NCBI GenBank assembly: GCA_003452915.1 | Contig: DMMZ01000043.1 | Coordinates: forward strand, 4,933-68,932 | Length of the DNA stretch: 64,000 nt | Direction of reading: 5' to 3' | Source: Clostridiales bacterium | Lineage (GTDB): Bacteria > Bacillota > Clostridia > Oscillospirales > CAG-382 | Part shown: positions 4,391-58,168 of the stretch, piece by piece | Position numbering within the stretch: the stretch's first letter is position 1 | How the letters are laid out: each line of letters begins with the position of its first letter | Program-made: the position numbers and the translations under genes | The notes under the pieces: generated by a model | What the model was told of the DNA's origin: nothing | What the model saw: only the letters and a program-made list of their open reading frames with translations | The model's database searches: none

Positions 4391-6493
4391 TTATACGGAG
4401 TAAAGAATTTCGCCGTATGCGGGGAACGGCCAGTATTTAGCTCCAACAAGAGTTTCGAGTTCGTCAGCAATAACACGAAGTTCTTGCATTTCGGAAAGTA
4501 TGGAATCTTTGCAGAAATTCGCAAGAGAAGCGGTATCTCCGTGATAATCACCTGCGGAGATAAGTGCTTTTTCCAGAGTTTCTGCCTTTTTGTAGAGAAT
4601 AGTAGAAAGCTTACTTATTTTTCCTGCAAGAGCAACCTCACCGCTGCTGGATATGTCTATGCCGATATCTTTATTTGCTTTTGCTGCTTCCGCAAGCATC
4701 TTTCCGTATTCGTAAACAGCTGGAAGAATATCCTTGCGTGTCATATCGAGCATGGTAAGGGCCTCAATATTAATAACCTTGTAATAATTCTCAAGCAACA
4801 ATTCGCAGCGTGAACGAATTTCCGGCTCAGTAAATATTTTGTACTTTGAGAATAACTTGATATTCTTTTTACTTACAAAGTAAGGAAGAGCCTCGGGTGT
4901 GGACTTGAGATTAAGTAATCCGCGTTTTTCAGCTTCAACTACCCATTCTTTTGCGTAGTTATTGCCGTTAAAGATAATGCGCTTGTGCTTAACAACAGTA
5001 TCTTTAACAATAGCATCAACTTCGCTTGCAATGTCGGTTGCTTTTTCAAGACGATCAGCAAACTCTGAAAGTGCGTCGGCTACTATTGTATTGAGTATTA
5101 TATTCGGACCCGAAACCGAGAATGAAGAGCCTAACATACGGAATTCGAATTTATTACCTGTAAAAGCAAATGGAGAAGTTCGGTTGCGATCGGTAGTGTC
5201 CTTCTTGAAGTCAGGAAGGACATTTACACCTGTCTGCATCTTGTTAGATTTTACACAGTTGTATTCGCAACCTGTTTCAATCGACTCAAGAACAGAAGTA
5301 AGCTCATCACCCAAGAACATAGAAACGATTGCGGGAGGTGCTTCATTTGCACCAAGGCGATGATCATTTCCTGCACTTGCAACGGAAATTCTAAGTAAAT
5401 CCTGATGCTCATCAACCGCTTTTATAATTGCTGCAAGGAATAAAAGGAATCTCTTGTTAGCAATCGGATTTTTACCCGGATGGAATAAATTTATACCAGT
5501 ATTTGTAGAAAGTGACCAGTTATTATGTTTGCCGCTACCATTAACACCGGCAAACGGCTTTTCATGAAGAAGACAAGCCATTCCATGACGTTCGGCTACT
5601 CTTTTCATTATTTCCATGGTGAGCTGATTATGGTCAACTGCGATGTTTGTGGTTGTGAACACAGGAGCAAGCTCATGCTGTGCCGGTGCAACCTCATTAT
5701 GCTCGGTCTTTGCAAGAATACCAAGCTTCCAGAGTTCCTTGTTAAGATCCTCCATAAAAGCCATAACTCTTGGTCTGATTGAGCCGAAATAATGATCCTC
5801 AAGCTCCTGACCCTTGGGAGGTTTTGCACCGAAAAGTGTTCTGCCTGTAAAACGAAGATCCTTGCGTTTTAAGAAGGAAGCTCTGTCTACAAGAAAATAT
5901 TCCTGTTCGGGGCCAACTGTAGAATTTACATAAGAAACGTCTTTATCGCCGAACAGATTAAGAACTCTGCTTGCTTGTTTACTGATTAACTCCATTGAAC
6001 GGAGCAAAGGCATTTTTTTGTCAAGAACCTCTCCGCCGTAAGAACAGAATATTGTAGGAATGCAAAGCGAATTGTCTTTTATAAATGCATAGGATGTGGG
6101 ATCCCATGCGGTGTAACCTCTGGCTTCGAAAGTAGCTCTCAGACCTCCGGATGGAAAAGAAGATGCATCCGGTTCACCTTTTATAAGTTCTTTACCAGAG
6201 AACTCCATAATAACCTTACCGTCACTCTGAGGAGAGATAAAGCTGTCATGCTTTTCAGCTGTTATGCCTGTCATTGGCTGGAACCAGTGTGTATAATGGG
6301 TTGCACCTTTTTCAAGAGCCCAGTCCTTCATCGCACTTGCGACTATATTTGCTACTGTTATATCGAGATCATTACCCGATTCGATTGTATTTTTAAGAGA
6401 TTTATATATTTCTTTAGGTAGCTTTTCCTTCATGACGGAGTCGCTGAACACAAGAGAACCAAAAATCTCCGGCACTTTCAATGCATTGCTCAA
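4391..6493 (-). CDS. glnN: Glutamine synthetase, type III
   Basis: 700 aa, the length and overall sequence expected for type III GS. The N-terminus reads [30 protein letters not shown], and it contains a GS catalytic-core-like segment ([10 protein letters not shown]). Confidence 0.9.
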
Positions 6494-6530
6494 AAAAATT
6501 TCATCCTTCCGTTTTTCAATATATTATTAA

Positions 6531-7538
6531 TTATAAAAGTTCAATGCCAGCTTCTGAGCAAATTTGCTTTGTTTCGCTGTCCCAGACTGATACCTGCACC
6601 TCACCAATGTGAGCTTTTTCAAGAAGCAACATACAGAATCTTGATTGCCCTATACCGCCGCCGATTGAAAGAGGAAGTGTTCCGTCTAAAAGTAAGCTGT
6701 GGAACATCATTTTCTTTCTGTCCTCAGCACCAGCTTCTGCAAGCTGAGATTCAAGCGAAGCTTTGTCAACACTAATACCCATTGAGGATACTTCGTAAGC
6801 AATACCGAGTAGATCGTTCCAGAAAACAATATCACCGTTAAGAGTCCAATCGTCATAGTCAGGAGCGCGTCCGTCATGTTTGACACCGGACTTAAGCAAT
6901 CCGCCAATCTTCATAATAAAGGTTGTCTTGTGTGTTTTTACAAAAGCATTTTCTCTTTCTTTCGGAGAAAGTTCGGGATAAATATCCTCAAGCTCTTGTG
7001 TAGTTACAAAGGTTACATCTTCCGAAAGTTTTACTTTAAGTTGTGGGTAAAGTCCGTTAATATAAGCATTTGTTTCACACATGGCTTTAACTTCTGCTTT
7101 TACAACCGATTTTATAAATTCGATAGTGCGTTGTTCTGCAGTTATAACCTTTTCCCAGTCCCACTGATCAACATAAATGGAATGCAGGTTATCCATTTCT
7201 TCATCTCTGCGGACAGCGTTCATATCGGTATAAAGTCCCTCGCCTATTGGGAAGCCGTATTTGTATAAAGCATATCGTTTCCATTTTGCGAGAGAATGTA
7301 CAATCGCGCCATCTGTGCCGGAATCTTTTATATCGAACATAACCGCTCTTTCGGTGCCGTTAAGGTCGTCATTAAGACCGGTCGATGGTTCAACAAACAG
7401 CGGCGCTGATACTCTTTTTAAATTAAGAGCCGCACCCAATCTGTCTTCGAAGTTTCTTTTGATCATTCCAATTGCTGTTTGTGTTTCATACAGCGACAGA
7501 GCTGATTTGTATCTCTGCGGAATATAGGTTTTGCTCAT
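6531..7538 (-). CDS. asnA: Aspartate--ammonia ligase (asparagine synthetase A)
   Basis: 335 aa counted from MSKTYIPQRYKS...; class II aaRS-like AsnA sequence (LNLKRVSAPLFV, IGGGIGQSRLCM-like motif). I chose the ATG at 7538 behind GAGGAAAGGAAAGG; the ORF-track start at 7628 falls inside the structured leader. Confidence 0.9.
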   Translation of the reverse strand: MSKTYIPQRYKSALSLYETQTAIGMIKRNFEDRLGAALNLKRVSAPLFVEPSTGLNDDLNGTERAVMFDIKDSGTDGAIVHSLAKWKRYALYKYGFPIGEGLYTDMNAVRRDEEMDNLHSIYVDQWDWEKVITAEQRTIEFIKSVVKAEVKAMCETNAYINGLYPQLKVKLSEDVTFVTTQELEDIYPELSPKERENAFVKTHKTTFIMKIGGLLKSGVKHDGRAPDYDDWTLNGDIVFWNDLLGIAYEVSSMGISVDKASLESQLAEAGAEDRKKMMFHSLLLDGTLPLSIGGGIGQSRFCMLLLEKAHIGEVQVSVWDSETKQICSEAGIELL

Positions 7539-7577
7539 TTTTTTACCTTTCCTTTCCTCGGCGTTTTTGCCGAAATC

Positions 7578-7710
7578 GGGAGTTGTGCCGCAATGCACAA
7601 TCCCTTGTTTGAAAGTTTCTACTTTCAAACTTTACATCGCTTAAATATTTTATTTTGTTAGCTACATATAGAATAAAGGCACTGCGGGTTTATATGCCCA
7701 CAGCGCCTTT
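7578..7710 (-). promoter_or_regulatory. Structured 5' leader of asnA-glnN with three strong hairpins
   Basis: Minus-strand hairpins: 7675-7710 (14 bp with 2 G-U pairs, followed by TTTATTCTATAT), 7607-7630 (perfect 10 bp, GTTTGAAAGT/ACTTTCAAAC) and 7578-7604 (10 bp, 1 bulge, loop ATTGCG). Confidence 0.4.
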
Positions 7711-7724: not shown

Positions 7725-7752
7725 ATTATAATCCGCATTTTGCCATTTGTCA
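7725..7752 (-). promoter_or_regulatory. Sigma-A-like promoter of asnA-glnN
   Basis: On the minus strand: TTGACA, a 16-nt spacer, then TATAAT. Confidence 0.5.
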
Positions 7753-7804
7753 ATACCTTTTTTAAAAAAATATTTTTATTTACATTTCGTTACGACAAAA
7801 AGGG

Positions 7805-7832
7805 TTGACAAACCTCATTTTACGTGTATAAT
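7805..7832 (+). promoter_or_regulatory. Sigma-A-like promoter of the GOGAT-glnA-ANTAR operon
   Basis: TTGACA (7805-7810), a 16-nt spacer ending in TG, then TATAAT (7827-7832). Confidence 0.5.
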
Positions 7833-7848
7833 GTACTCAAAGACAAAG

Positions 7849-7907
7849 GTGTCTGACATAATGTGCAGGAAGTATAATTTCTGTGCAGTTTGTCGGACGC
7901 TTTTTTT
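7849..7907 (+). terminator. Leader (attenuator) terminator upstream of the first GOGAT gene
   Basis: The basal stem is GTGTCTGACA (7849-7858) paired with TGTCGGACGC (7891-7900): 10 bp including 2 G-U pairs. Further internal pairing (CAGGAA/TTTCTG) follows. The hairpin is followed directly by T7 (7901-7907), about 40 nt before the start codon at 7948. Confidence 0.55.
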
Positions 7908-7947
7908 ATTTAGTCTATATTCTATATTATTTAGGAGTAAGAAGAGT

Positions 7948-9048
7948 ATGCTTAAAGAAGGATTTAACGGATATAGAATACCTGCAGGGTGTGCGATCTC
8001 GGGTATTTTTTCTAAAGAAGGAAAACGAATAAGTGGCGAAAAAATTATAAAATCTATTGGGTTAATGAGAGAACGTTCAAACGGTCTGGGCGGTGGATTT
8101 GCAGGTTATGGAATCTATCCGGATTATAAGGATTTGTATGCGTTTCATGTATTTTATGATACACCAAAAGCAAAAGATGAATGCGAAAAGTTCCTCGACA
8201 AGCATTTTGATGTTATAAATCTTTCAAAGATACCGACTAAAAAAATAAAAACAATTACAAACGAGCCGCTTATCTGGCGTTATTTTGTAAAGCCACTGCC
8301 GACAAAGCTTGCTGATAGTCAGCTTGACGAGGATGAGTTTACCGCTCGTTCGGTAATCAGGGTAAACACGACTATTGAGGGAGCGTACATATTTTCCAGC
8401 GGAAAGAACATGGGCGTTTTCAAAGCAGTTAGTTACCCCGAGGATGTCGGTGAATTTTATAATCTAAGTCAATACGAGGGTTATTGCTGGACCGCACATG
8501 GCAGATATCCTACAAACACTCCCGGCTGGTGGGGCGGAGCACATCCCTTTGCTTTGCTTGACCTTTCAATAGTGCATAACGGTGAGATTTCGTCTTATGA
8601 CGCAAACCGTCGTTTTATAGAGATGTATGGATATAAATGTACGCTTTTAACCGATACTGAGGTTATTACTTATATTGTAGATTATCTTTGCCGCAGACAG
8701 GGGCTTTCAATGAAAGAAACAGCAGAAGTAATTGCCGCTCCGTTCTGGACTACGATCGATAAAAAGAACGAGAAGGATAAAGAGAGATTAACTTATCTAC
8801 GCAATACCTTTGCAAGCCTGTTGATTACAGGACCTTTTTCAATACTTGTAGGTTTTACAGGCGGAATCATGGCACTAAACGATAGATTAAAGTTGCGTTC
8901 AATGGTTGTCGGAGAAAAAGATGATACCGTTTATATCGCCAGTGAAGAGAGTGCAATCAGGCTGATACAACCTGATTTGGACAAAATATACGCACCAAAA
9001 GGCGGAGAACCGATTATATACACCTTTAATGATGGTGTAACTCTTTAA
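7948..9048 (+). CDS. Glutamate synthase domain 1-like class II glutamine amidotransferase subunit (archaeal-type split GOGAT)
   Basis: 366 aa counted from MLKEGFNGYRIPAGCAISGIF. It has an N-terminal nucleophile Cys and an HGRYPTNTPGWWGGAHPF motif. I chose the ATG at 7948 behind AGGAG; the ORF-track start at 7747 would read through the promoter and leader terminator. Confidence 0.85.
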   Translation: MLKEGFNGYRIPAGCAISGIFSKEGKRISGEKIIKSIGLMRERSNGLGGGFAGYGIYPDYKDLYAFHVFYDTPKAKDECEKFLDKHFDVINLSKIPTKKIKTITNEPLIWRYFVKPLPTKLADSQLDEDEFTARSVIRVNTTIEGAYIFSSGKNMGVFKAVSYPEDVGEFYNLSQYEGYCWTAHGRYPTNTPGWWGGAHPFALLDLSIVHNGEISSYDANRRFIEMYGYKCTLLTDTEVITYIVDYLCRRQGLSMKETAEVIAAPFWTTIDKKNEKDKERLTYLRNTFASLLITGPFSILVGFTGGIMALNDRLKLRSMVVGEKDDTVYIASEESAIRLIQPDLDKIYAPKGGEPIIYTFNDGVTL

Positions 9049-9128: not shown

Positions 9129-9204
9129 GCCATTTTCCAACGACAAATGGCGGTTGGATTATAGATTTTATTTTTATATTTGTCGTTGGAGAAATGGATT
9201 TTTT
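9129..9204 (+). promoter_or_regulatory. Candidate cis-regulatory leader RNA motif, copy A (CCAACG-loop hairpin plus complementary CGTTGGAGAAA box)
   Basis: Hairpin GCCATTT(9129-9135)/AAATGGC(9145-9151) with loop CCAACG at 9137-9142. A proximal GTTGGA lies at 9153-9158. The distal GTCGTTGGAGAAATGGA box is at 9182-9198 and the ATG at 9205. Near-identical elements occur at 41646-41717 and 58017-58087. Confidence 0.55.
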
Positions 9205-10710
9205 ATGCCAATCGATTTTATATATCCAGAATACGAAATAGCAAGAAATAAAGACCGTTGTATAGCCTGTCGCGTTTGTGAAAGACAATGTGCAAACGAG
9301 GTACATAAATATGATCAGGAACTTAAAATGATGGTTGCAGATGATATAAAATGTGTCGACTGTCAGCGTTGCGTTTCGCTTTGCCCTACAAGAGCATTAA
9401 AAATTGTAAAGACCGATAATACATATAAACAAAACGCCCACTGGAAGGGCAGTATTATTTCAGAGGTTTACCGTCAGGCAGGAAGCGGCGGTGTGCTGCT
9501 TTCTTCAATGGGTAATCCTCTCGACCTGCCAATTTATTGGGATAAGATTCTTATAAATGCATCACAGGTAACAAACCCCTCTATTGACCCATTAAGAGAA
9601 CCGATGGAAACAAAAACCTATCTCGGTCAGCGTCCTAATAAGATAGAGCGTGATAAGGACGGTAACATTGTCAATAACTTAACACCTCAGCTTGAATTAA
9701 GTACGCCGATTATGTTCTCGGCAATGTCATACGGATCAATAAGCTATAACGCACACGAGAGTCTTGCAAGAGCTGCTACCGAGCTTGGTATCTACTACAA
9801 TACAGGTGAAGGCGGACTGCACGAGGGTTTTTATAAATACGGTGCAAACACTATAGTTCAGGTTGCTTCGGGACGTTTCGGAGTTCATAAAGATTATTTA
9901 AACGCAGGTGCTGCAGTTGAAATAAAAATGGGACAGGGTGCAAAACCCGGTATCGGCGGACATCTTCCCGGCGCAAAGATTGTCGGTGATGTTTCAAGAA
10001 CAAGAATGATTCCCGAAGGCTCAGATGCGATTTCACCTGCTCCTCACCACGATATTTATTCAATTGAAGATCTTCATCAATTAGTTATGTCTCTCAAAGA
10101 AGCAACAAATTATACCAAGCCTGTTATAGTAAAAATCGCAGCGGTGCATAATGTTGCGGCAATAGCTTCAGGTATTGCACGAAGTGGTGCCGATATTATT
10201 TCAATTGACGGCTTCAGAGGCGGCACAGGTGCTGCTCCCACAAGAATAAGAGATAATGTAGGTATTCCGATCGAACTTGCACTTGCAAGTGTTGACAAGC
10301 GGCTCAGAGACGAGGGAATAAGAAACAATGTTTCTATAGTCGTTGGCGGTTCTGTAAGAAGCAGTGCTGATGTTGTAAAAGCAATTGCTCTCGGTGCGGA
10401 TGCGGTTTATATTGCAACAAGTGCACTTTTGGCACTCGGCTGTCACCTTTGCAGAAGCTGCCATGAAGGCAGATGCAACTGGGGTATAGCAACACAACGT
10501 CCTGATTTAGTAAAACGACTTAACCCCGAAATAGGTTATAAACGACTGGTAAATCTTGTTTCTGCCTGGACACATGAAATTAAAGAAATGATGGGCGGAA
10601 TGGGCATTAACTCAATAGAAGCACTTAAGGGTAATCGACTTATGCTCAGAGGTGTGGGACTTAACGAGAAGGAGCTTGAAATTCTTGGCATCCTTCACGC
10701 AGGGGAATAG
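9205..10710 (+). CDS. Glutamate synthase domain 2-like FMN subunit with an N-terminal 2x[4Fe-4S] ferredoxin domain
   Basis: 501 aa. Has CIACRVCERQC and CVDCQRCVSLCP clusters, then a GltB FMN-domain sequence (MSYGSIS, GEGG, KMGQGAKPGIGGHLPG, IDGFRGGTGAAP). I chose the ATG at 9205. Confidence 0.85.
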   Translation: MPIDFIYPEYEIARNKDRCIACRVCERQCANEVHKYDQELKMMVADDIKCVDCQRCVSLCPTRALKIVKTDNTYKQNAHWKGSIISEVYRQAGSGGVLLSSMGNPLDLPIYWDKILINASQVTNPSIDPLREPMETKTYLGQRPNKIERDKDGNIVNNLTPQLELSTPIMFSAMSYGSISYNAHESLARAATELGIYYNTGEGGLHEGFYKYGANTIVQVASGRFGVHKDYLNAGAAVEIKMGQGAKPGIGGHLPGAKIVGDVSRTRMIPEGSDAISPAPHHDIYSIEDLHQLVMSLKEATNYTKPVIVKIAAVHNVAAIASGIARSGADIISIDGFRGGTGAAPTRIRDNVGIPIELALASVDKRLRDEGIRNNVSIVVGGSVRSSADVVKAIALGADAVYIATSALLALGCHLCRSCHEGRCNWGIATQRPDLVKRLNPEIGYKRLVNLVSAWTHEIKEMMGGMGINSIEALKGNRLMLRGVGLNEKELEILGILHAGE

Positions 10711-14368: not shown

Positions 14369-14379
14369 GGGTGGCGGGT

Positions 14380-14967
14380 ATGTTGTTCGGCAAAACGCCG
14401 TACAGCGTGCTGGTGGTCTCAAGCGGAGAGAAGATTACTGAGTTTATAAAAGAAGTTCTGGATAACAGTGTCTATTCCCCTGTTGTTTTTACCGCAAGCG
14501 GTGGAGAGGCAAGGAATATCCTTATTTCGCAGAATTTTGACCTTGTTATAATTAACTCTCCTCTTAGCGACGAATTCGGCAGTGAACTTGCTTTTAAGCT
14601 GACCGAAAATTCAGTATGTGGCGTAATTATACTAGTAAAAAGCGATATTTTTGATGAAATAAGTGAGCGTGTTGAACAATACGGCGTACTTGCTGTAAGC
14701 AAACCGATTTCCCGTGCGTTTTTTACTCAAGCTATAAAAATGTCGGTTGCTACTTTAGAACGTTTAAAACGGCTCGAAACAGAAAATAAAAAGCTTACAT
14801 TAAAAATCGATGAGGTTAAGTTAATCGAAAGAGCAAAATTTGTATTAATCGAATATTTAAAAATGAACGAATCTCAGGCGCATAAATATATCGAAAAACA
14901 AGCTATGGATATGCGTGTTACTCGACGCGAGGTAGCGGAAAGTATAATAAAAACATATGAATACTAA
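14380..14967 (+). CDS. ANTAR-domain RNA-binding antiterminator with a pseudo-receiver N-terminal domain
   Basis: The C-terminus ERAKFVLIEYLKMNESQAHKYIEKQAMDMRVTRREVAESII is a typical ANTAR helix bundle preceded by a coiled coil. The N-terminal CheY-like fold lacks the usual acidic pocket: VVSSGE occupies the DD position, and DLVIINSPL has N where the phospho-Asp is expected. A GTG at 14371 is an alternative start. Confidence 0.85.
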   Translation: MLFGKTPYSVLVVSSGEKITEFIKEVLDNSVYSPVVFTASGGEARNILISQNFDLVIINSPLSDEFGSELAFKLTENSVCGVIILVKSDIFDEISERVEQYGVLAVSKPISRAFFTQAIKMSVATLERLKRLETENKKLTLKIDEVKLIERAKFVLIEYLKMNESQAHKYIEKQAMDMRVTRREVAESIIKTYEY

Positions 14968-27776: not shown

Positions 27777-28055
27777 ATGAACGACGATAACAATAACGAT
27801 AATAAAGAAGAAAAAGCGAAAAGCAAACTCATAGACGATGGCAGAACAATAGCAAATATGGATGTCCCGGGTTTTCGCTGGCATACACCTGAAAAGCAAA
27901 AACGCAAGCGTAAGGAACTCGTTGAATTAGGCATCAGCAAGCAAGAACGACGCGCAATGATTAAGGGTGCGTTACTTGCAATTTTTCCTGTTGTTTTCGC
28001 CTTTATAACATTGTTTTTTGTAGCATTCCTGATAATACATTTTTGGTTAACTTAA
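27777..28055 (+). CDS. Small hypothetical membrane protein
   Basis: 92 aa with a charged N-terminus and a single C-terminal TM segment (LLAIFPVVFAFITLFFVAFLIIHFW). I recognise no family. Confidence 0.4.
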   Translation: MNDDNNNDNKEEKAKSKLIDDGRTIANMDVPGFRWHTPEKQKRKRKELVELGISKQERRAMIKGALLAIFPVVFAFITLFFVAFLIIHFWLT

Positions 28056-28072
28056 AATATAATAATAAAAAT

Positions 28073-28093
28073 ACGGTGTGGCATCCACACCGT
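28073..28093 (+). terminator. Hairpin after the 27777-28055 gene (weak terminator)
   Basis: ACGGTGTGG, loop CAT, then CCACACCGT: a 9-bp stem. The downstream tail is A-rich rather than T-rich on the plus strand. Confidence 0.35.
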
Positions 28094-28121
28094 AAAAATT
28101 TATTATGGAGTAAAGAAAGAT

Positions 28122-28619
28122 ATGGATTTTACTATCAGACAAATGATAGACGATGACTGGACTGTTGTTGTAGATATTTATAAGCAAGGCATGAAAACAA
28201 AAAATGCAACCTTTGAGACGGTTGTTCCAACCTTCGAGGTTTGGGATAAAGGTCACTTGAAAGTTTGCAGACTTATTGCAGAAGCGGATAATATAATTTT
28301 CGGCTGGCTGGCGCTTACTCCTGTAAGCAATCGTTTCGTTTACAGAGGAGTTGCCGAGGTCAGTGTTTATCTTGATGAGAGATACAGAGGAAAAAAAATC
28401 GGAGAAGCACTTCTTAACAGAGCGATTGAAGAATCGGAGAAAAACGGAATCTGGACCTTGCAGTCAACTATTTTTGACACGAACGAAATAAGTATCGCTC
28501 TACATAAAAAATGTGGCTTCAGAATTGTCGGCGTTCGGGAAAAACAGGGCTGTGACGGCGACGGAATCTGGCGTAATGTTGTCCTGATGGAAAGACGCAG
28601 CAAGACGGTAGGAGTTTAG
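28122..28619 (+). CDS. GNAT family N-acetyltransferase (phosphinothricin-acetyltransferase-like)
   Basis: 165 aa. Has an acetyl-CoA-binding motif (RGKKIGEALLNRAIEESEKNGIWTL) and a C-terminal LHKKCGFRIVG. Confidence 0.75.
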   Translation: MDFTIRQMIDDDWTVVVDIYKQGMKTKNATFETVVPTFEVWDKGHLKVCRLIAEADNIIFGWLALTPVSNRFVYRGVAEVSVYLDERYRGKKIGEALLNRAIEESEKNGIWTLQSTIFDTNEISIALHKKCGFRIVGVREKQGCDGDGIWRNVVLMERRSKTVGV

Positions 28620-28626
28620 ATTTAAT

Positions 28627-29526
28627 ATGATTTATAAGTTTAAACAAGATGAAACCGAGAGTATAATTAATCGTTTCGGTAAGGATTTTTACGAAAAAGT
28701 TCTTAGTGATATTGAAAAGTATGCAAATAAGTGGAAGTTAAAATCTTTCTATCTGATACCCTCTTATTCTGCAAATTTAGTTTTTACTTGCAATTCTGAA
28801 AAATATGGAAATGCTATTTTAAAAATCGGCAATTCTTTTAAGGAAATTTCAACAGAATATAATGCTCTTTGCGAATATAACAGCAGACGATTCTGTAAAG
28901 TGTTTGACGCTGATATTGAAAATGGTGTTATGCTAGTAGAACGAATAGAACCGGGAAAACCCTTGAGAGATGAAAATTCGCTTGTCAAAAGACTTTCTGT
29001 GATCAGTGATTTGTATAACGAACTACATATAGCACCGATTAAATCCGATATATACCCGACCTATACCCAATGGGTTAACAGGATAACCGATTATATGAGC
29101 AAGCGGCAAGATTGCAAAGAATTATATGCTTATATGCAAAAAGCAAAGGCTATTTATTTGTCTGTTTCTGAAAGATATTCGAAAAAAATGCTGATTCACG
29201 GAGATTTCCATCATGATAATATATTACAAGATAATAATGGAAAATATATTATTATTGACCCTAAAGGCGTAATAGGTGATCCGATTTTTGACGTTCCGAG
29301 ATTTATTTTAAACGAATATGAATATGATAAAAATGTGCAGTTATACAATAAAATAAATCATATTATAAACAATTTCGAAAAAAGCCTTGATATCCCGAAC
29401 GAGATAATCAAAAAATGTCTATATGTTGAAACGGCTATGGGAGAATGCTGGAGTGTGGAAGATGGTTCATCTCCTGAGGATTATCCTAATCAAATCAAAA
29501 CTGTTGCTTTCGCAGAGTCACTTTAA
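28627..29526 (+). CDS. Aminoglycoside phosphotransferase family protein (APH(6)/streptomycin-kinase-like)
   Basis: 299 aa with the catalytic loop LIHGDFHHDNIL and IIDPKGVIGDP, resembling the APH(6) family. Confidence 0.65.
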   Translation: MIYKFKQDETESIINRFGKDFYEKVLSDIEKYANKWKLKSFYLIPSYSANLVFTCNSEKYGNAILKIGNSFKEISTEYNALCEYNSRRFCKVFDADIENGVMLVERIEPGKPLRDENSLVKRLSVISDLYNELHIAPIKSDIYPTYTQWVNRITDYMSKRQDCKELYAYMQKAKAIYLSVSERYSKKMLIHGDFHHDNILQDNNGKYIIIDPKGVIGDPIFDVPRFILNEYEYDKNVQLYNKINHIINNFEKSLDIPNEIIKKCLYVETAMGECWSVEDGSSPEDYPNQIKTVAFAESL

Positions 29527-29583
29527 AATACCTAACTATAAAATAAAAATCTGCCGAACGATAGCTCAGCAGATTTATTATTT

Positions 29584-30069
29584 TTAACTTAAGGAATTAA
29601 TTTTATCAGCAAATTTCTTTATATTTTCCGGTAAAATATTAGGTAACGGTGTTCCTTTTTTTGCACCTGCTTCTGTCATTTTCTTTACTATAAATTTAAA
29701 AAGTCCTTTTTGTTTCGTTAAATCAATTTCACCGCCGAAGCTATCACCGTAAAAAGATCTCGCAAGTAGATCAGCAGGTATATTTGCTTTTAAAAAATCG
29801 TTTGCTCTTGTAACATCTGCACTGCATACAAAAAAGGCAATTTTCTTGGTTTTTAAAAGTTCGATGTTTGCTTTTACATATTTTTTTGCTGTCTTATGTA
29901 GCATACCGGCACGAATGCTGCCGCCAATAACAACAACATCATAGTTATTCAAGTCAGGATTACCGCTTTGCAGGTCGAAAAGATCAGCACCGTTAAACTG
30001 TTCGGAAAGCAGTTTTGCGCATTTTTCTGTAGTACCTGTTTTACTTGCATATGCAATAAGCGTTTTCAT
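29584..30069 (-). CDS. Flavodoxin-domain protein
   Basis: 161 aa. Starts with the FMN-binding motif MKTLIAYASKTGTTEKCA, followed by VVIGGSIRAG. Confidence 0.75.
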   Translation of the reverse strand: MKTLIAYASKTGTTEKCAKLLSEQFNGADLFDLQSGNPDLNNYDVVVIGGSIRAGMLHKTAKKYVKANIELLKTKKIAFFVCSADVTRANDFLKANIPADLLARSFYGDSFGGEIDLTKQKGLFKFIVKKMTEAGAKKGTPLPNILPENIKKFADKINSLS

Positions 30070-30144
30070 AAAATATCCGTCCTTTATAATTCATATACCA
30101 TATATTATCATATAAAACACTACTTTTCAATAGCAGAATAAAAG

Positions 30145-30636: not shown

Positions 30637-30743
30637 ATGTAACCTCCATAAAGATAAATATTTTATTATCATTTATAGAATTATATGATTAGAACTTCTT
30701 CGGTTATGTTTAAAAAATAAAAAATGAATATATCTTCTGTTGC

Positions 30744-30773: not shown

Positions 30774-30796
30774 AAAATGTATATTATACTATATTT

Positions 30797-30870: not shown

Positions 30871-30880
30871 AAAAATAACA

Positions 30881-41616: not shown

Positions 41617-41645
41617 AAATAAGTTAAAATATCTTTAGGTTTAAG

Positions 41646-41717
41646 GCGCCATTAATCCAACGATAAATGGCGCTGGAATTTTCAATACATAATTTTCGTT
41701 GGAGAAATGGATCTATT
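41646..41717 (+). promoter_or_regulatory. Candidate cis-regulatory leader RNA motif, copy B
   Basis: Hairpin GCGCCATT(41646-41653)/AATGGCGC(41666-41673) with inner AT/AT pairs and loop CCAACG at 41657-41662. The distal TTCGTTGGAGAAATGGA box is at 41695-41711 and the ATG at 41718. Confidence 0.55.
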
Positions 41718-42113
41718 ATGTACAGCAGAGATTTCGGCGGTGTCCGTTCGGATGGTCAGCTGAGAGAGTTTGAGAACAACTGGCAGAATCAATATACACA
41801 AAAACAATATACCGAAAGCGTTCAGAGTGAAACAAGATCAGAAACGCCTGTTTATGAAAGCAATCAATCTGAACAAAAACAATATCACTCGGATAATATT
41901 GGATTACATGGTGATGCTCCGGTTATTGAAAGTAGTGCCATACAATCACTGACTTCTCGAATGAAGGGCCTTTTCAATTTTAATCTGGATTTTTTAAAGA
42001 AAATTGACATTGACGATTTAATTTTAGTCGGAATAGGTATATTACTTTTACTTGATTCTGATACCAGTAATGATATGTGGATTATTTTAATAGCTATTAT
42101 GCTGTTCTTTTAA
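41718..42113 (+). CDS. Small hypothetical membrane protein (Gln/Glu/Ser-rich N-terminal region, C-terminal TM segments)
   Basis: 131 aa counted from MYSRDFGGVRSDG. The C-terminus is DDLILVGIGILLLLDSDTSNDMWIILIAIMLFF. An alternative in-frame ATG at 41667 lies inside the conserved hairpin. Confidence 0.45.
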   Translation: MYSRDFGGVRSDGQLREFENNWQNQYTQKQYTESVQSETRSETPVYESNQSEQKQYHSDNIGLHGDAPVIESSAIQSLTSRMKGLFNFNLDFLKKIDIDDLILVGIGILLLLDSDTSNDMWIILIAIMLFF

Positions 42114-55475: not shown

Positions 55476-58016
55476 TTATATGAAATATGATGTTATCCAT
55501 ACAGGAACCAACCATATCATCTGGAGAATTACCATATAATATGAGCTGATTGCGGAAGCATCTCCCGTAATTGACAGGAAAAAAGCTGCAAAGAAAGAAA
55601 GAAAAACACTTGCAATTGTAATTATTGCATTACTCTTTGTAACGTGTCTTGCCTTATCACAGACAACAAACATCTTTAAAAAGGTATGTAACGAAGCGTT
55701 AGATACTATACCGCTGTCGATACTCTGACATTCACCATTCATGTCCTCGGGGCTGCCTGCTTTTAAGATTGCTATCGGACATTTTTTGAACTTTATTCCC
55801 GATGCCAGTAGTTCATTATTTATATTAGGGTCAAGAGTTTTTATACCAAGACACATTCCTGCCTTATACATGTCCTTTAGCAGACTGTCAAAAAGCGGGT
55901 TAAGTGTATATTTTATATAAACCTTAGCAGCAAGCGACTCGTTTAATACTACATACATTATTGAGCCGACACTCTTCTCGTACATATCGTCATCAGGGTC
56001 GCCTGGTGTCTCAAAGCGATAACGACGCATATAACTCTTTTTCCCAAGGAATATATGAGTTCCGTCCACCGCAACACATATGCCGTCAGCAGCAGATTCA
56101 ATAAGCCTAATACTCTTGGCAACAGCTACCGAATCACCTAAAACTCCTGCAAAAACCTTTTCAAGCGGACCACCAATAAAGGCAAATACCTTTGCCATAT
56201 CTGGTATAATCTTGTCTATTCTGTAATCACCGTAGGTTCTCAGGCTTGTAATTTTTACAAGATGAGCAGGGTATACCTCTGTATCCGCAAAAGACATAAC
56301 CGAAGCATCGGCATATTCCTCGGATACAGCGTTTCCAATAAATGCGGAATTGCATTTCGCACCTTTTTTATTCGCTGCTATTATAGGCAGCGGAATCATA
56401 AAGAAGGAGGAAAGCGGTACCGATGTTGTTATCAGCAATGAGAAAGACAAAAATGACGTTCGTAAATCCGAGCCCAACATATACATAACGGCAAAAAGCA
56501 CAACACCCGCCAATAGAATTGAAGGTATTAAGAAGTTAAATAAATCCTCGCCTTTTGCACGTTTTTTTGTTCGGGTAAAAAAGCCGCTTACAAAGTTTGT
56601 TTTCTTAACTGTATATAAATCGGAATTTTCCAATAGATATTTGTAAAATTCATCAGCTTCTTTTGCACTGTTGTCAAGCTCGGAAGCTGCATATTTTGTC
56701 TTTTTTGAAGCTAGAACTCTAAAACAATGATAGTCTTTTTTATTATTTTGATAATTAATTGTAATTGCACATACAGCTGCAACCGCACAGGGGAAGCCAT
56801 ATAGCTTTAATTCTGCCGATGTCGGATCTGTAAACAGCATAACAAATGAATATGCAGCAGTAAAAATAAACGATATCGTAAACATGCTGTCGGTGTTAAG
56901 TTTTAACTTAAATATACCTGACAAACCGTTTTTAATATTGGATATCATTACTAAAGCTGAGAAGAATAATAACTGCAAATCGATTAATATATATAGAATT
57001 CCATATCTGCCTGGTTTAAAAAAAACCGAGTGGAAAACACTGTCCTTTGTAGCCAACTCAAGGTAAAAAATTGCAAAAGCAAATATGATTACCGATATCA
57101 ATTTAAAACGACTGTGGTTAATTGCTTTTTTAAGCATTATATTTATCTCGGAGTTCTGCTCACGAGAAGTATATTCGTATTCGTTTCCTTTATTTAATTT
57201 TAATTTTTTCCTATGATTCTTTACTTTCTCTTTTTCTTTTTTCAGGAACTCGTCTATATCATAACGGCTCTCATCCATCATATTGAAAGCCAGCCGTAAG
57301 TTTATATCTGTTTCGTCAAGTGGTTCTCCGTCCTCATCCTTGATAGCAAGCTTATCCGCCTCATCATCCATAAAGGCGACCTGGTGTTCATCTTCCTCTT
57401 CATTATCAAAGGATATTTCACCACTAGTGATTTTTTCGGTAAGTTTCTCATAGTCGCTGTCAAAACTTGCAGTGGTCTTGGCAACCGGCTCGTCATCAAT
57501 TTCCTGTGTGTCTCCAAAATAAAACATTTTTTCTTGAGGAAAGGTGACTTTTTGCGGAACAGTGCTTGAATCCACAAGACGAATTTTATCTACTTCAGTC
57601 GGCGAGGAAACCTCTGCATCAGAAATAGTGGCTGTTGTTGCATGATGTATAAGTGAATATAATTCCTCAACCTTACTGCTTCTTGAACGAACTTTATTGT
57701 TATCGAAATATCCCAGCAGTTCTTTGTTTTCCTGCATTTGAAAAGCTAATGAATCACGCAGGCTCTGTGTGTTGGAAAAGGGCTTTTCTTTTTCCTTTTT
57801 TGTATATACACTTATAATTTCTGCTGCTTCGTCACATATTCTACCGGTATTATGTAATTTAGCGGATGGTTTTACCGCAAAATTTATTCCTTGTTGTGGT
57901 ACAGGCTTCACCGTGTCATTGATTTTAGTACGTTCGTATAAGCGTGCTTGTTCGTTAGCGATGTCAGCCTGCTTGAGAAGCTCTTTTAAATATAAACTGT
58001 TAGCGTCTTCCGGCAT
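55476..58016 (-). CDS. Large membrane protein, degenerate P1B-type ATPase homolog with a long acidic N-terminal region
   Basis: 846 aa. The C-terminal ~550 aa align by eye with heavy-metal P-type ATPases, but the key motifs are replaced: TSVPLS for the CPC helix, SFADTEVY for FDKTGTLT, KTLDPNIN for LTGDN, and no GDGxND. The N-terminal ~290 aa are Glu/Asp/Lys-rich. Confidence 0.5.
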   Translation of the reverse strand: MPEDANSLYLKELLKQADIANEQARLYERTKINDTVKPVPQQGINFAVKPSAKLHNTGRICDEAAEIISVYTKKEKEKPFSNTQSLRDSLAFQMQENKELLGYFDNNKVRSRSSKVEELYSLIHHATTATISDAEVSSPTEVDKIRLVDSSTVPQKVTFPQEKMFYFGDTQEIDDEPVAKTTASFDSDYEKLTEKITSGEISFDNEEEDEHQVAFMDDEADKLAIKDEDGEPLDETDINLRLAFNMMDESRYDIDEFLKKEKEKVKNHRKKLKLNKGNEYEYTSREQNSEINIMLKKAINHSRFKLISVIIFAFAIFYLELATKDSVFHSVFFKPGRYGILYILIDLQLLFFSALVMISNIKNGLSGIFKLKLNTDSMFTISFIFTAAYSFVMLFTDPTSAELKLYGFPCAVAAVCAITINYQNNKKDYHCFRVLASKKTKYAASELDNSAKEADEFYKYLLENSDLYTVKKTNFVSGFFTRTKKRAKGEDLFNFLIPSILLAGVVLFAVMYMLGSDLRTSFLSFSLLITTSVPLSSFFMIPLPIIAANKKGAKCNSAFIGNAVSEEYADASVMSFADTEVYPAHLVKITSLRTYGDYRIDKIIPDMAKVFAFIGGPLEKVFAGVLGDSVAVAKSIRLIESAADGICVAVDGTHIFLGKKSYMRRYRFETPGDPDDDMYEKSVGSIMYVVLNESLAAKVYIKYTLNPLFDSLLKDMYKAGMCLGIKTLDPNINNELLASGIKFKKCPIAILKAGSPEDMNGECQSIDSGIVSNASLHTFLKMFVVCDKARHVTKSNAIITIASVFLSFFAAFFLSITGDASAISSYYMVILQMIWLVPVWITSYFI

Positions 58017-58087
58017 TTTTCTGTCCTTTTCTCCAACGACTATTTTTTATATAAAACCAAATCACCATTTTTCGTTGGAATAATGGT
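58017..58087 (-). promoter_or_regulatory. Candidate cis-regulatory leader RNA motif, copy C
   Basis: Minus-strand sequence ACCATTATTCCAACGAAAAATGGTGATTTGG...GTCGTTGGAGAAAAGGACAGAAAAATG. The stem is ACCATT (58082-58087) paired with AATGGT (58064-58069), and the loop CCAACG is at 58073-58078. The CGTTGGAG box is at 58031-58038 and the ATG at 58016. Confidence 0.55.
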
Positions 58088-58168
58088 AAATCATAGGATG
58101 ATTAAACCGTTTTTACGATTTACATTCCTCCATAGGCGATAGAAATAACGATAATAGCATTAATAAAA

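What the first reader, a model, noticed from the sequence alone, without database searches (positions are those of the whole stretch)
9129..9204. Three-copy conserved leader element: covarying hairpin with an invariant CCAACG loop complementary to a CGTTGGAGAAA box next to the ribosome-binding site
Three 5' regions in this window share an element of about 70 nt that no coding feature explains.

Copy A (9129-9204, +): GCCATTTTCCAACGACAAATGGCGGTTGGA-(23 nt AT-rich)-GTCGTTGGAGAAATGGATTTTTTATG.

Copy B (41646-41717, +): GCGCCATTAATCCAACGATAAATGGCGCTGGA-(17 nt)-TTCGTTGGAGAAATGGATCTATTATG.

Copy C (58017-58087, -): ACCATTATTCCAACGAAAAATGGTGATTTGG-(16 nt)-GTCGTTGGAGAAAAGGACAGAAAAATG.

Shared architecture:
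1. A CCATT/AATGG stem whose flanking pairs covary. The outer pair is G-C in A and B and A-T in C. The inner pairs are AT/AT in B and TT/AA in C.
2. An invariant apical CCAACG.
3. A short TGG(A) repeat just 3' of the hairpin that mimics the distal box.
4. An invariant CGTTGGAGAAA box exactly complementary to the loop, immediately upstream of the (A/T)GGA that sits 6-7 nt from the ATG.

This is the layout of a loop-to-SD pseudoknot, or of an anti-SD/anti-anti-SD translational switch.

The ATG embedded in the 3' stem gives a 5-codon uORF in A, an in-frame extension in B and an out-of-frame 22-codon uORF in C. Conservation is therefore at the nucleotide/RNA level, not the peptide level.

The downstream genes are unrelated: the GOGAT FMN subunit (inside an operon, after an unusual 156-nt spacer), a small Gln/Glu-rich membrane protein, and a degenerate P-type-ATPase-like protein. 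This suggests a shared post-transcriptional regulon.

I cannot match the element to any riboswitch or leader class I know (preQ1, SAM-II/V, guanidine, glutamine, ZTP, THF-II, NAD-II and others were considered by consensus).
Basis: seen in the sequence. Interest (0 to 1): 0.85.

Follow-up and report, generated by a model that had tools for sequence, protein, structure and literature searches.

The report
Dispersed pseudoknot beside ribosome-binding sites
A roughly 80-nt RNA element, in which a hairpin loop base-pairs with the bases just upstream of the ribosome-binding site, sits in front of unrelated genes in a small group of uncultured Clostridia; it is real, supported by compensatory mutations and absent from Rfam, but it looks like a general translation-start module and not a metabolite riboswitch.

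Summary
Three copies lie at the stated coordinates, against 0.03 expected by chance. Rfam 15 has no match at gathering score or in sensitive scans.

Using related genomes I assembled 18 instances from 9 genomes, all uncultured Oscillospiraceae/Eubacteriales MAGs or metagenome contigs. Both helices covary:
- **Hairpin P1:** 9 of 9 pairs change on both sides.
- **Loop–box helix P2:** 100% paired, and 4 of 6 pairs change on both sides. At one orthologous site the series is CCAACG/CGTTGG, CCGGCG/CGCCGG, CCGGCA/TGCCGG, CCGATG/CATCGG, TCGACG/CGTCGG.

The "invariant" loop is therefore a freely covarying pseudoknot strand. The constant part is GG-AGAAA(N)GG. I read this as an extended Shine-Dalgarno sequence directly 3' of P2, placed 15-17 nt before the AUG.

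The linker is not conserved, so there is no ligand pocket. Downstream genes are unrelated, and the element comes and goes gene by gene; copy A is missing at 94% protein identity. In 17 of 18 cases it follows a gene on the same strand. The anti-SD switch pairing is detectable in only about half the instances.

Best reading: a cis-acting H-type pseudoknot built into translation initiation regions and spread by duplication. It is a new variant of a known kind, and its function is untested.

The parts
9129..9207 (+). Copy A, whole element from P1 to the start codon of the GltB-FMN subunit gene
   Evidence: Sequence. CM R1 78.3 bits, R2 59.9 bits. Downstream protein is Glu_synthase plus Fer4.
9129..9135 (+). 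Copy A, P1 5' strand GCCATTT. It can also pair with the SD tail (P3).
   Evidence: 7-bp stem, p=0.034 against shuffled flank. P3 extension -9.2 kcal/mol, p=0.003.
9137..9142 (+). Copy A, loop hexamer CCAACG, the 5' strand of pseudoknot helix P2
   Evidence: Pairs with 9184-9189. P2 is 100% paired with covariation across 18 sequences.
9145..9151 (+). Copy A, P1 3' strand AAATGGC, the same sequence as the SD tail AAATGG
9152..9183 (+). Copy A, AU-rich linker (L3), variable in length and sequence between instances
   Evidence: No conserved columns in alignments A4 and A7.
9184..9189 (+). Copy A, box CGTTGG, the 3' strand of P2
9190..9198 (+). Copy A, tail AGAAATGGA, read as an extended Shine-Dalgarno with a 1-nt bulge
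   Evidence: GGAGAAA is invariant in all 18 instances. The tail is exactly AGAAAGGA in L039 and L043. The match to the 16S 3' end comes from general knowledge of Firmicutes 16S.
9205..9207 (+). Copy A, start codon of the gltB-FMN gene, 15 nt after the box
   Evidence: In-frame translation gives a 501-aa Glu_synthase protein.
41645..41720 (+). Copy B, whole element in front of a 131-aa protein of unknown function with a hydrophobic C-terminus
   Evidence: R1 76.1 bits. No Pfam or NCBIfam family.
41645..41653 (+). Copy B, P1 5' strand GGCGCCATT
   Evidence: 9-bp stem, p=0.0005.
41657..41662 (+). Copy B, loop CCAACG (P2 5' strand)
41666..41674 (+). Copy B, P1 3' strand AATGGCGCT
41697..41702 (+). 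Copy B, box CGTTGG (P2 3' strand)
41703..41711 (+). Copy B, SD tail AGAAATGGA; ATG at 41718-41720
58014..58089 (-). Copy C, whole element between rlmB (SpoU methylase) and an 846-aa membrane protein of unknown function
   Evidence: R2 71.7 bits. The rlmB, 846-aa gene, EF-G paralogue order is conserved in relatives.
58082..58089 (-). Copy C, P1 5' strand TTACCATT
   Evidence: 8-bp stem, p=0.01.
58073..58078 (-). Copy C, loop CCAACG (P2 5' strand)
   Evidence: The orthologous sites show the compensatory series.
58062..58069 (-). Copy C, P1 3' strand AATGGTGA
58033..58038 (-). Copy C, box CGTTGG (P2 3' strand)
58024..58032 (-). Copy C, SD tail AGAAAAGGA; ATG at 58016-58014
   Evidence: P3 pairing is not above shuffled controls here, p=0.44.

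Best explanation
The element is a cis-acting RNA module built into the translation initiation region.

Anatomy, 5' to 3':
1. A hairpin, P1 (4-16 bp, sequence free to vary).
2. A 6-nt stretch of its loop (CC/UC-NNNN) that pairs with NNNN-GG 16-35 nt downstream. This is helix P2, and together with P1 it makes a classical H-type pseudoknot.
3. Immediately 3' of P2, the constant AGAAA(N)GG(A). This is the extended Shine-Dalgarno sequence.
4. The AUG, always 15-17 nt after the box.

Proposed function (inferred). The pseudoknot places a rigid, compact structure at about -16/-18, the 5' edge of the ribosome-binding site. This sets how efficiently, and how independently of the upstream cistron, the 30S subunit loads on a gene inside a polycistronic mRNA. 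Geometrically, the 16S 3' tail paired to AGAAA(N)GGA would abut and could stack on P2.

In about half the instances the 5' strand of P1 is also complementary to the SD tail, and the 3' strand of P1 has the same sequence as the tail. Those copies can toggle between an SD-exposed pseudoknot (P1+P2) and an SD-sequestered long hairpin (P2+P3). I read this as an optional repressive or tunable add-on.

The family is not tied to any gene function. It appears to spread by duplication within genomes, and each site then drifts by compensatory change.

Shown: the two helices, the fixed spacing, the mostly intercistronic position, independence from gene identity, and gain and loss between genomes. Inferred: the effect on translation, the 16S pairing and stacking, and the mode of spread.
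For: - P2: 102 of 102 cells paired in 17 sequences, 4 of 6 pairs with changes on both sides, 0 of 500 shuffles reach the observed covariation, and slid controls give 24-54% paired against 92.6%.
- On the 18-sequence model alignment: P1 has 9 of 9 pairs with changes on both sides (80% paired), P2 is 100% paired, covariation is 0.484 against 0.24 in shuffles, 0 of 500.
- Orthologous compensatory series upstream of the 846-aa gene: CCAACG/CGTTGG, CCGGCG/CGCCGG, CCGGCA/TGCCGG, CCGATG/CATCGG, TCGACG/CGTCGG with a G.U pair.
- A paralogous compensatory pair within one MAG, L025b against L025a.
- A P1 stem is present in all 17 instances tested, p<0.05 in 14.
- G.U pairs work only on the mRNA strand.
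- The box-to-AUG distance is 15-17 nt in all 17 seed instances (read from the sequences; 18 nt by my count in the weaker 18th, L047 glnA).
- GGAGAAA is invariant, and the tail is exactly AGAAAGGA in L039 and L043.
- 17 of 18 instances follow a same-strand open frame whose stop lies 0-85 nt before the first base of the model match, which is 3-6 nt 5' of P1.
- Copy C lies inside an rlmB operon with no promoter or terminator match in between.
- Every intergenic NNNNGGAGAAANGG box has the complementary loop; the ones inside coding sequence have none.
- R2 detected an unseeded instance at 36.4 bits.
- About 90% identical 165-nt units sit upstream of four unrelated genes in one MAG.
Against: - There is no experimental or expression data of any kind. 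The effect on translation is inferred from position only.
- No 16S rRNA sequence from these MAGs was available, so the SD assignment rests on general knowledge of Firmicutes 16S.
- Most instances have a 1-nt bulge (N) in the putative SD, which fits the alternative P3 pairing better than optimal 16S pairing.
- The sample is small (18 instances, 9 genomes), partly found with a pattern that fixed the CCAACG loop, and partly related by descent. This inflates the shuffle statistics.
- ViennaRNA cannot score pseudoknots, so the balance between the pseudoknot and the long hairpin is not quantified. RNAfold prefers the long hairpin for copy A and P1 for copies B and C.
- No mechanism of spread was found: no target-site duplication and no transposase.
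Confidence: 0.5

Rival explanations
1. The element is mainly a bistable translational switch, such as an RNA thermometer, a kinetic 'translate only while nascent' timer, or a switch triggered by the upstream ribosome. The P1 5' strand acts as an anti-SD, the P1 3' strand as an anti-anti-SD, and P2 as a clamp that holds them close to the SD.
For: - In 7 of 15 non-redundant instances the P1 5' strand pairs with the SD tail better than shuffles do: A, B, L002, L025b, L035, L036b and L043b.
- The variable base N in the tail (U or C) matches the 5' strand (A or G) in those copies.
- The P1 3' strand and the tail have the same sequence (AAATGG or GAAACG).
- The MFE of copy A is the SD-sequestering long hairpin, -27 kcal/mol, z=-3.6.
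- In the JAVBKA copies the long helix is 15-17 bp and perfect.
- In L035 and L036 the upstream stop codon lies 0, 1 and 11 nt from the start of the model match, a few nt 5' of P1, so a terminating ribosome would open P1.
Against: - The other 8 of 15 instances, including copy C and its orthologues L032, L036a, L039a and L043a, show no P3 pairing above shuffles.
- Own against cross-instance energies barely differ: -7.3 against -6.6 kcal/mol.
- The distance from stop codon to P1 varies from 0 to 85 nt.
- No sensor domain is present.
Confidence: 0.2
2. The element is an operator for a trans-acting factor, such as an RNA-binding protein or an sRNA, that recognises the pseudoknot plus GGAGAAA and coordinates a post-transcriptional regulon.
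For: - GG-AGAAA is invariant in all 18 instances, beyond what pairing alone requires.
- The element occurs at several genes per genome.
Against: - The set of genes carrying the element is not conserved between close relatives.
- The loop and box covary freely, so they are not sequence-specific contacts.
- The SD-proximal GGN is GGA, GGT or GGG, which does not fit CsrA.
- The invariant tract is explained more simply as the Shine-Dalgarno sequence.
Confidence: 0.12
3. The element is an mRNA processing or stability element, or a largely selfish dispersed repeat. A 5' structure plus a strong ribosome-binding site could protect the downstream cistron after endonucleolytic cleavage, in the manner of STAB-SD or a 5' stem-loop. 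Alternatively the repeat simply persists where it is tolerated.
For: - 17 of 18 instances are intercistronic.
- Near-identical 165-nt copies occur in one MAG.
- Gain and loss are rapid. Copy A was inserted into a junction where the genes overlap in Caproiciproducens.
Against: - A purely selfish repeat would not keep P1 and P2 by compensatory change at an orthologous site while the neighbouring protein diverges from 77% to 62% identity.
- It would not hold a 15-17 nt spacing to the AUG, or a fixed orientation.
- There is no direct evidence of processing.
Confidence: 0.13
4. The element is a small-molecule riboswitch, for example for glutamine, glutamate or a metal ion, with a pseudoknot aptamer.
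For: - The pseudoknot-at-the-RBS layout resembles preQ1-II, SAM-II and SAM-V.
- Copy A lies in a nitrogen-assimilation operon.
Against: - No Rfam hit.
- No conserved unpaired nucleotides. The linker varies from 16 to 35 nt with no conserved columns.
- Downstream genes are functionally unrelated: MraY, YbaB, PfkB, ALGX, a lipoprotein and proteins of unknown function.
- Nitrogen control of the operon is already provided by a leader with an ANTAR regulator.
- The element is absent at gltB in close relatives.
Confidence: 0.03
5. The element is a DNA-level feature: an inverted-repeat operator for a dimeric transcription factor, an integron attC-like site or a REP/MITE recombination site.
For: - An 8-12 nt inverted repeat, TCCAACGA...TCGTTGGA.
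- ATCCAAC and GTTGGA loosely resemble attC core sites (from memory).
Against: - G.U (G-T) pairs in P1 and P2 work only on the mRNA strand.
- The spacing between the arms varies from 32 to 39 nt or more, so it is not in helical phase.
- The AAC/GTT triplet is not conserved (CCGGCG, CCGATG).
- The orientation and the distance to the ATG are fixed.
- The flanking housekeeping gene order is conserved.
- No copies in viral contigs.
Confidence: 0.02

Closest known systems
Translational-activator pseudoknot of IncB/IncI-alpha plasmid rep genes (repA/repZ); recalled from the literature, not tested here
   Same: A hairpin loop pairs with a short sequence immediately 5' of the Shine-Dalgarno sequence of the downstream gene. 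In some instances the upstream reading frame ends close to the structure.
   Different: The plasmid system is specific to one gene. It is controlled by an antisense RNA and needs leader-peptide translation. Here there is no sign of an antisense RNA or leader peptide, and the element sits at many unrelated chromosomal genes.
Pseudoknot riboswitches that include the RBS (preQ1-II, SAM-II, SAM-V, preQ1-I type III)
   Same: An H-type pseudoknot whose 3' strand lies at or next to the SD.
   Different: Those classes have conserved ligand-contacting nucleotides in the loops and a coherent set of regulated genes, and they are in Rfam. This element has no conserved unpaired positions, no Rfam match and unrelated downstream genes.
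Structured mRNA leaders that dock on the 30S platform (E. coli rpsO/S15 pseudoknot, rpmI/L20 long-range pseudoknot); from memory
   Same: A pseudoknot at the 5' edge of the ribosome-binding site. In the L20 case a long-range loop-to-downstream pairing.
   Different: Those are autoregulatory operators bound by the encoded ribosomal protein and are found only at that gene. Here the SD and AUG lie outside the pseudoknot and the genes are diverse.
SD-sequestering RNA thermometers (ROSE, fourU) and riboswitch expression platforms
   Same: In about half the instances the layout is anti-SD, anti-anti-SD, SD.
   Different: SD pairing is not universal in this family. The defining feature is the P1/P2 pseudoknot, which those elements lack.
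Dispersed intergenic repeats in transcribed spacers (REP/BIME, ERIC, BOX/RUP, Correia elements)
   Same: Multi-copy, imperfectly palindromic, found in intercistronic spacers, with near-identical copies within one genome and gain and loss between relatives.
   Different: Those repeats have no fixed register with the start codon and no fixed orientation. This element carries the SD, keeps a 15-17 nt distance to the AUG, always faces the gene, and shows compensatory evolution at orthologous sites.

Membership tests
Any Rfam 15 family (riboswitches, leaders, ribozymes including pistol, thermometers) | Covariance-model score at or above the family's gathering threshold | tested here: not met
   Whole window at gathering score: only two tRNAs. 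Sensitive scans of each locus at E up to 10: only miRNA and snoRNA chance hits at 10-25 bits against gathering scores of 38-139 bits.
H-type pseudoknot leader at a ribosome-binding site (general kind) | Hairpin stem supported by covariation | tested here: met
   P1: 9 of 9 pairs with changes on both sides. Stems present in all 17 tested, p<0.05 in 14.
H-type pseudoknot leader at a ribosome-binding site (general kind) | Loop pairs with a downstream single strand, supported by covariation | tested here: met
   P2: 100% paired, 4 of 6 pairs with changes on both sides, one with G.U, 0 of 500 shuffles, and slid controls collapse.
H-type pseudoknot leader at a ribosome-binding site (general kind) | Fixed position next to the SD and start codon | tested here: met
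   The box is followed by AGAAA(N)GG, and the AUG lies 15-17 nt after the box in all 17 seed instances.
H-type pseudoknot leader at a ribosome-binding site (general kind) | Measurable effect on translation initiation | not testable with these tools
   Needs reporter fusions or toeprinting.
Metabolite riboswitch | Conserved unpaired nucleotides forming a ligand pocket | tested here: not met
   The linker and loop flanks have no conserved columns. The only invariant block is the SD region.
Metabolite riboswitch | Functionally coherent set of downstream genes conserved across species | tested here: not met
   Downstream genes: GltB-FMN, MraY, YbaB, PfkB, ALGX, GlnA, a lipoprotein, a Zn-ribbon protein and two of unknown function. 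Presence is not conserved at orthologous genes.
SD-sequestering switch or RNA thermometer | SD paired to an upstream anti-SD in all members | tested here: inconclusive
   7 of 15 non-redundant instances are significant and 8 of 15 are not.
CsrA-regulated leader | Two or more accessible GGA motifs, one overlapping the SD, usually in hairpin loops | tested here: not met
   The SD-proximal motif is GGA, GGT or GGG. The invariant GG of GGAG is base-paired in P2. The two motifs are only 7 nt apart.
ANTAR antiterminator target | Two tandem hairpins with hexanucleotide loops overlapping a terminator | tested here: not met
   There is a single hairpin with a 9-16 nt loop and no terminator match. By eye, one hexaloop hairpin that would fit this type lies separately in the operon leader at about 7850-7910; it was not tested.
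MITE / REP-type mobile repeat | Multi-copy with near-identical copies in a genome | tested here: met
   Four copies about 90% identical over 165 nt in the JAVBKA01 MAG. Three copies in this 64-kb window.
MITE / REP-type mobile repeat | Random orientation and position relative to genes; target-site duplications | tested here: not met
   All 18 face the downstream gene at a fixed distance. No homology upstream of P1 between genomes and no duplications seen.
Integron attC site | Conserved core sites RYYYAAC / GTTRRRY | tested here: not met
   The AAC/GTT triplet is replaced by GGC/GCC, GAT/ATC and GAC/GTC in the variants. The flanking housekeeping gene order is conserved.

The most novel reading that the evidence does not exclude
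The element is a copy-and-paste 'ribosome-binding cassette'. It is an RNA-level module that spreads within and between genomes of a clade of uncultured Oscillospirales and installs, in front of arbitrary genes, an extended Shine-Dalgarno sequence buttressed by a pseudoknot. The 16S 3' end stacks coaxially on that pseudoknot. This would create a lineage-specific layer of translational control, with an optional built-in SD-sequestering state. The class would combine the properties of dispersed repeats with those of structured regulatory leaders.
Probability: 0.25. Interest if true: 0.8.

Novelty: new variant of a known kind. Interest (0 to 1): 0.62.

Why it matters
Structured leaders that control translation are normally tied to one gene family, as with riboswitches and ribosomal-protein operators. 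Dispersed intergenic repeats, in contrast, normally have no fixed relation to the ribosome-binding site. This element combines both: a covariation-supported pseudoknot fused to the Shine-Dalgarno sequence that appears in front of unrelated genes and turns over quickly between close relatives.

If it modulates initiation, three things follow:
- It would show how operon-internal genes can gain independent, tunable translation by acquiring a ready-made module. Copy A replaced an ancestral overlapping, coupled junction in the glutamate synthase operon.
- It would give a compact natural RBS insulator or switch part for Firmicutes engineering.
- It would add a motif that is missing from Rfam.

The ordered compensatory series at one orthologous site is also a clean natural example of pseudoknot evolution.

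Tried and rejected
- **Rfam.** Gathering-score scan of the whole window and sensitive scans of each locus gave nothing but tRNAs and chance miRNA or snoRNA hits.
- **Genome-collection scan** with TCCAACGA-N20-50-TCGTTGGAGAAA gave 27 hits, about the chance number. Only 5 loci from 3 MAGs were real.
- **Protein-guided metagenome harvest** with the 846-aa family returned only 4 loci.
- **Viral contigs:** 0 hits.
- **Literature** searches by architecture and by sequence strings found nothing relevant.
- **Generic scanner** with no fixed loop or tail found no members lacking the AGAAANGG tail. Without the ORF requirement it gave 49 hits in real sequence against 17-31 in shuffles.
- **Second covariance model (R2)** over 360 kb found one new instance, L047 glnA, and nothing else.
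- **Promoter or terminator inside or beside the element:** none on the gene strand for A and C. There is one weak match (9 of 12) just upstream of B, in a region where the number of matches is at the level of shuffles. The U-content after P1, judged by eye, is inconsistent, so P1 is not a general terminator.
- **Homology upstream of P1 between genomes:** the ATAGGTTGAA resemblance between copy A and the JAVBKA unit is not supported by alignment.
- **The 'TGG(A) decoy box' 3' of P1:** by eye it is present in A, B, C, L032 and the JAVBKA copies only. It lies too close to P1 to pair while P1 is folded. I rejected it as a defining feature.
- **Conserved uORF:** rejected, because the ATG in the tail disappears when N is A or C.
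- **Annotation of the 846-aa and 131-aa proteins:** Pfam, NCBIfam and PDB sequence searches found no family. The only hint for the 'P-type-ATPase-like' label is that JGI names two homologues 'cation transport ATPase'.
Full report
**1. Observation**

| Copy | Strand | P1 (5' / 3' strand) | Loop | Box | Tail | ATG |
|---|---|---|---|---|---|---|
| A | + | 9129-9135 / 9145-9151 | 9137-9142 | 9184-9189 | 9190-9198 | 9205 |
| B | + | 41645-41653 / 41666-41674 | 41657-41662 | 41697-41702 | 41703-41711 | 41718 |
| C | - | 58089-58082 / 58069-58062 | 58078-58073 | 58038-58033 | 58032-58024 | 58016 |

The composite pattern CCAACG-N25-55-CGTTGG occurs 3 times against 0.03 expected. The exact box CGTTGGAGAAA occurs only at these sites. 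A covariance model run with filters off finds exactly three copies in the window at 70-78 bits; the next forward-strand hit scores 14.9 bits.

Rfam 15 gives only two tRNAs at gathering score. Sensitive scans of each locus give only chance miRNA and snoRNA hits. Those hits simply reflect that copy A can fold into one long imperfect hairpin.

**2. Source and context**

The window comes from the groundwater MAG 'Clostridiales bacterium GWF2_36_10', GCA_001795415.1.

- **Copy A** lies in a 156-nt spacer inside a split glutamate synthase and glutamine synthetase operon. The gene order is GATase_2, then the FMN subunit with Fer4, a Fer4 protein, Pyr_redox_2, GXGXG and GlnA.
- That operon has its own promoter and a leader with a terminator-like hairpin at about 7806-7910. 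It ends with an ANTAR response regulator at 14371-14967. Its nitrogen control is therefore explained without the element.
- **Copy B** precedes a 131-aa protein of unknown function.
- **Copy C** lies between rlmB and an 846-aa membrane protein of unknown function. There is no Pfam, NCBIfam or PDB relative for these two proteins.
- rlmB has a strong promoter match (11 of 12, with TG) after a terminator. Nothing lies between rlmB and the 846-aa gene, so copy C is intercistronic.

**3. Relatives**

- An exact-pattern scan of 185,579 species-representative genomes gave about the chance number of hits. It included five real loci from three Oscillospiraceae/Eubacteriales MAGs.
- There the element precedes YbaB, a zinc-ribbon membrane protein, a gene cut off by the contig end, MraY and an F5/8-domain lipoprotein.
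- I then fetched DNA around graded orthologues of the 846-aa protein and of GltB-FMN.
- Together this gave 18 instances from 9 genomes.
- A second model built from 17 of them recovered all 17. It also detected the eighteenth (L047, upstream of glnA) at 36.4 bits, and found nothing else in 360 kb.

**4. Structure**

At the orthologous site upstream of the 846-aa gene, the loop and box change together:

| Locus | Identity of the 846-aa protein to the window | Loop | Box |
|---|---|---|---|
| window | 100% | CCAACG | CGTTGG |
| L032 | 77% | CCGGCG | CGCCGG |
| L035 | 70% | CCGGCA | TGCCGG |
| L036 | 62% | CCGATG | CATCGG |
| L039 | 74% | TCGACG | CGTCGG (one G.U pair) |
| L043 | 76% | TCGACG | CGTCGG (one G.U pair) |

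Within one MAG, paralogous copies about 90% identical differ by the same double compensatory change.

Formal counts:
- On the MAFFT alignment, the six core P2 pairs are standard pairs in 102 of 102 cells. Four pairs change on both sides, 0 of 500 shuffles reach the observed covariation, and pairing falls from 92.6% to 24-54% when partners are slid.
- On the model-based 18-sequence alignment, P1 has 9 of 9 pairs with changes on both sides and 80% of cells paired, even with some rows one column out of register. P2 is 100% paired. The overall covariation score is 0.484 against 0.24 in shuffles.
- Every one of the 17 instances tested has a stem around the loop, better than shuffled flanks at p<0.05 in 14.
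- G.U pairs occur in both helices and work only on the mRNA strand. Together with the variable spacing between the arms, this excludes a DNA operator.
- The geometry fits a classical H-type pseudoknot: L1 of 0-4 nt, P2 of 6-8 bp, L3 of 16-35 nt.

**5. What is constant**

- The only invariant block is GG-AGAAA-(N)-GG.
- The GG closes P2.
- AGAAA(N)GGA is an extended Shine-Dalgarno sequence. In L039 and L043 it is exactly AGAAAGGA. That is the complement of the usual Firmicutes 16S 3' end, ...CCUCCUUUCU (established knowledge; not checked for this MAG).
- The AUG follows the box by 15-17 nt in all 17 seed instances.
- The linker has no conserved columns, so there is no candidate ligand pocket.

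**6. Is it a switch?**

In copy A, the P1 5' strand plus the loop can pair continuously with the box plus the SD tail. This long hairpin is the MFE structure at -27 kcal/mol.

I tested the extension (P3) with P2 constrained. It beats shuffles in 7 of 15 non-redundant instances and not in the other 8. Own against cross-instance energies are -7.3 against -6.6 kcal/mol.

Where P3 exists, the tail base N (U or C) matches the 5' strand, and the P1 3' strand has the same sequence as the tail. That is the layout of a bistable switch. Where P3 is absent, the SD is a better match to 16S. The pseudoknot is therefore the defining core, and SD sequestration is an optional feature.

**7. Distribution and dynamics**

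- Seventeen of 18 instances follow a same-strand open frame whose stop lies 0-85 nt before the model match, a few nt 5' of P1.
- The set of genes carrying the element is not conserved:

| gltB-site locus | GltB-FMN identity | Spacer between GATase and FMN genes |
|---|---|---|
| window | 100% | 156 nt, element present |
| L047 | 94% | 137 nt, unrelated sequence |
| L048 | 89% | 39 nt |
| L049 (cultured Caproiciproducens) | 85% | genes overlap |

  L047 has the element at glnA, where the window does not.
- The ALGX site carries it in three genomes with three different P1 stems, and lacks it in L035, L038 and L044-L046.
- The 846-aa site lacks it in L038, L041 and L044-L046.
- In the JAVBKA01 MAG a 165-nt unit, about 90% identical, sits upstream of four unrelated genes.

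This pattern points to spread by duplication followed by local compensatory drift. No mechanism of spread was found, and there are no copies in viral contigs.

**8. Interpretation**

- **Best explanation (confidence 0.5):** a cis-acting H-type pseudoknot fused to the ribosome-binding site. It sets or insulates translation initiation of operon-internal genes, and a subset of copies can also sequester the SD.
- **Rivals:** a primary thermo- or kinetic switch (0.2); an mRNA processing or stability element, or a selfish repeat (0.13); an operator for a trans-acting factor (0.12); a small-molecule riboswitch (0.03); a DNA-level site (0.02).
- **Shown:** the helices, the spacing, the context, independence from gene identity, and turnover between genomes.
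- **Inferred:** the effect on translation, the 16S pairing and stacking, and the mode of spread.

**9. Comparison and novelty**

The closest functional analogues are the rep-gene activator pseudoknots of IncB/IncI-alpha plasmids and the pseudoknot riboswitches that include the RBS. The closest in genomic behaviour are the dispersed intergenic repeats (REP, ERIC, BOX). The element fails the membership tests for every named family I considered. It meets the structural criteria for a pseudoknot leader next to an RBS.

I rate it a new variant of a known kind, with interest 0.62. It is a solid, previously unannotated structured RNA motif with unusual genomic behaviour. It is narrowly distributed, found so far only in uncultured organisms, and has no functional data.

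**Caveats**

- The sample is small.
- It was partly found with a pattern that fixed the CCAACG loop.
- Many instances are related by descent, which inflates the shuffle statistics.
- Pseudoknot energetics were not computed.
- No 16S sequence was available.

Noticed in passing
window 7806-7948 and 14371-14967: The glutamate synthase and glutamine synthetase operon has its own regulatory leader: a promoter-like TTGACA-17-TATAAT at about 7806-7834, then a leader with a terminator-like hairpin and U-run at about 7850-7910. By eye the leader contains a hairpin with a hexanucleotide loop. The operon ends with a Response_reg plus ANTAR regulator gene (Pfam E=9e-16). This looks like NitR-type antitermination control of nitrogen assimilation, separate from the element.
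   Followed up: partly
window 7747-9048: The mechanical ORF call (TTG at 7747, 433 aa) over-extends the GATase_2 gene. Relatives encode 364-368 aa, and the window has an AGGAG-N11-ATG at 7948, so the true start is probably 7948.
   Followed up: partly
L002:385-536, L003:4459-4610 (-), L025:14-170 (-), L025:1340-1499: In the JAVBKA01 Oscillospiraceae MAG the repeat unit is about 165 nt. It begins with an extra perfect hairpin, ATAGGTTGAAT-AAA-TTCAACCTAT. The linker contains GGTAGGTTGT, a copy of that hairpin's 5' strand, which could pair with its 3' strand. This would be a further layer of alternative pairing, specific to that lineage.
   Followed up: partly
L041:9850-10000, L044:9865-10000, L045:8905-9038, L046:2150-2281: Orthologous rlmB to 846-aa spacers that lack the element carry other, unrelated hairpins instead (for example CCGTACG...CGTACGG and ATTCGAA...TTCGAAT) followed by GAAAGGA. 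The ALGX spacers in L044-L046 have a long hairpin, TTTATCCGGC...GCCGGATAAA. Structured spacers seem to be replaced, not simply lost.
   Followed up: no
L047:9864-10000: The closest relative (94% GltB-FMN identity) has a 137-nt spacer at the copy A site with an unrelated hairpin (TTGTGCC...GGCACAA, enclosing CTGCA...TGCAG) and SD TTAGGAAG. This is a different insertion at the same junction, which is an overlapping stop/start in Caproiciproducens (L049).
   Followed up: partly
window 4391-7628 (- strand): Open frames of 700 aa and 365 aa lie divergent from the glutamate synthase operon. By synteny with L047 and L048 they match a type III glutamine synthetase (GSIII_N/Gln-synt_C) and AsnA. The locus would then hold two glutamine synthetases of different types.
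   Followed up: no
window 30797-30867 (+) and 32322-32394 (-): Two tRNA genes (Rfam 62.6 and 55.4 bits) lie in a lower-GC stretch; GC is 0.338 over 28001-32000.
   Followed up: no
window 58108-58128 (- strand), upstream of copy C: A short reading frame, ATGGAGGAATGTAAATCGTAA (6 codons), containing a GGAGG motif, lies between the rlmB stop codon and P1. I did not check whether it is conserved in relatives.
   Followed up: no
window 55476-58016 (-) and relatives P0001-P0117: The 846-aa multi-pass membrane protein is conserved (40-77% identity) across many uncultured Clostridia, always between rlmB and an EF-G paralogue. It has no Pfam, NCBIfam or PDB relative. JGI names two homologues 'cation transport ATPase'. 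It is a widespread family of unknown function.
   Followed up: partly
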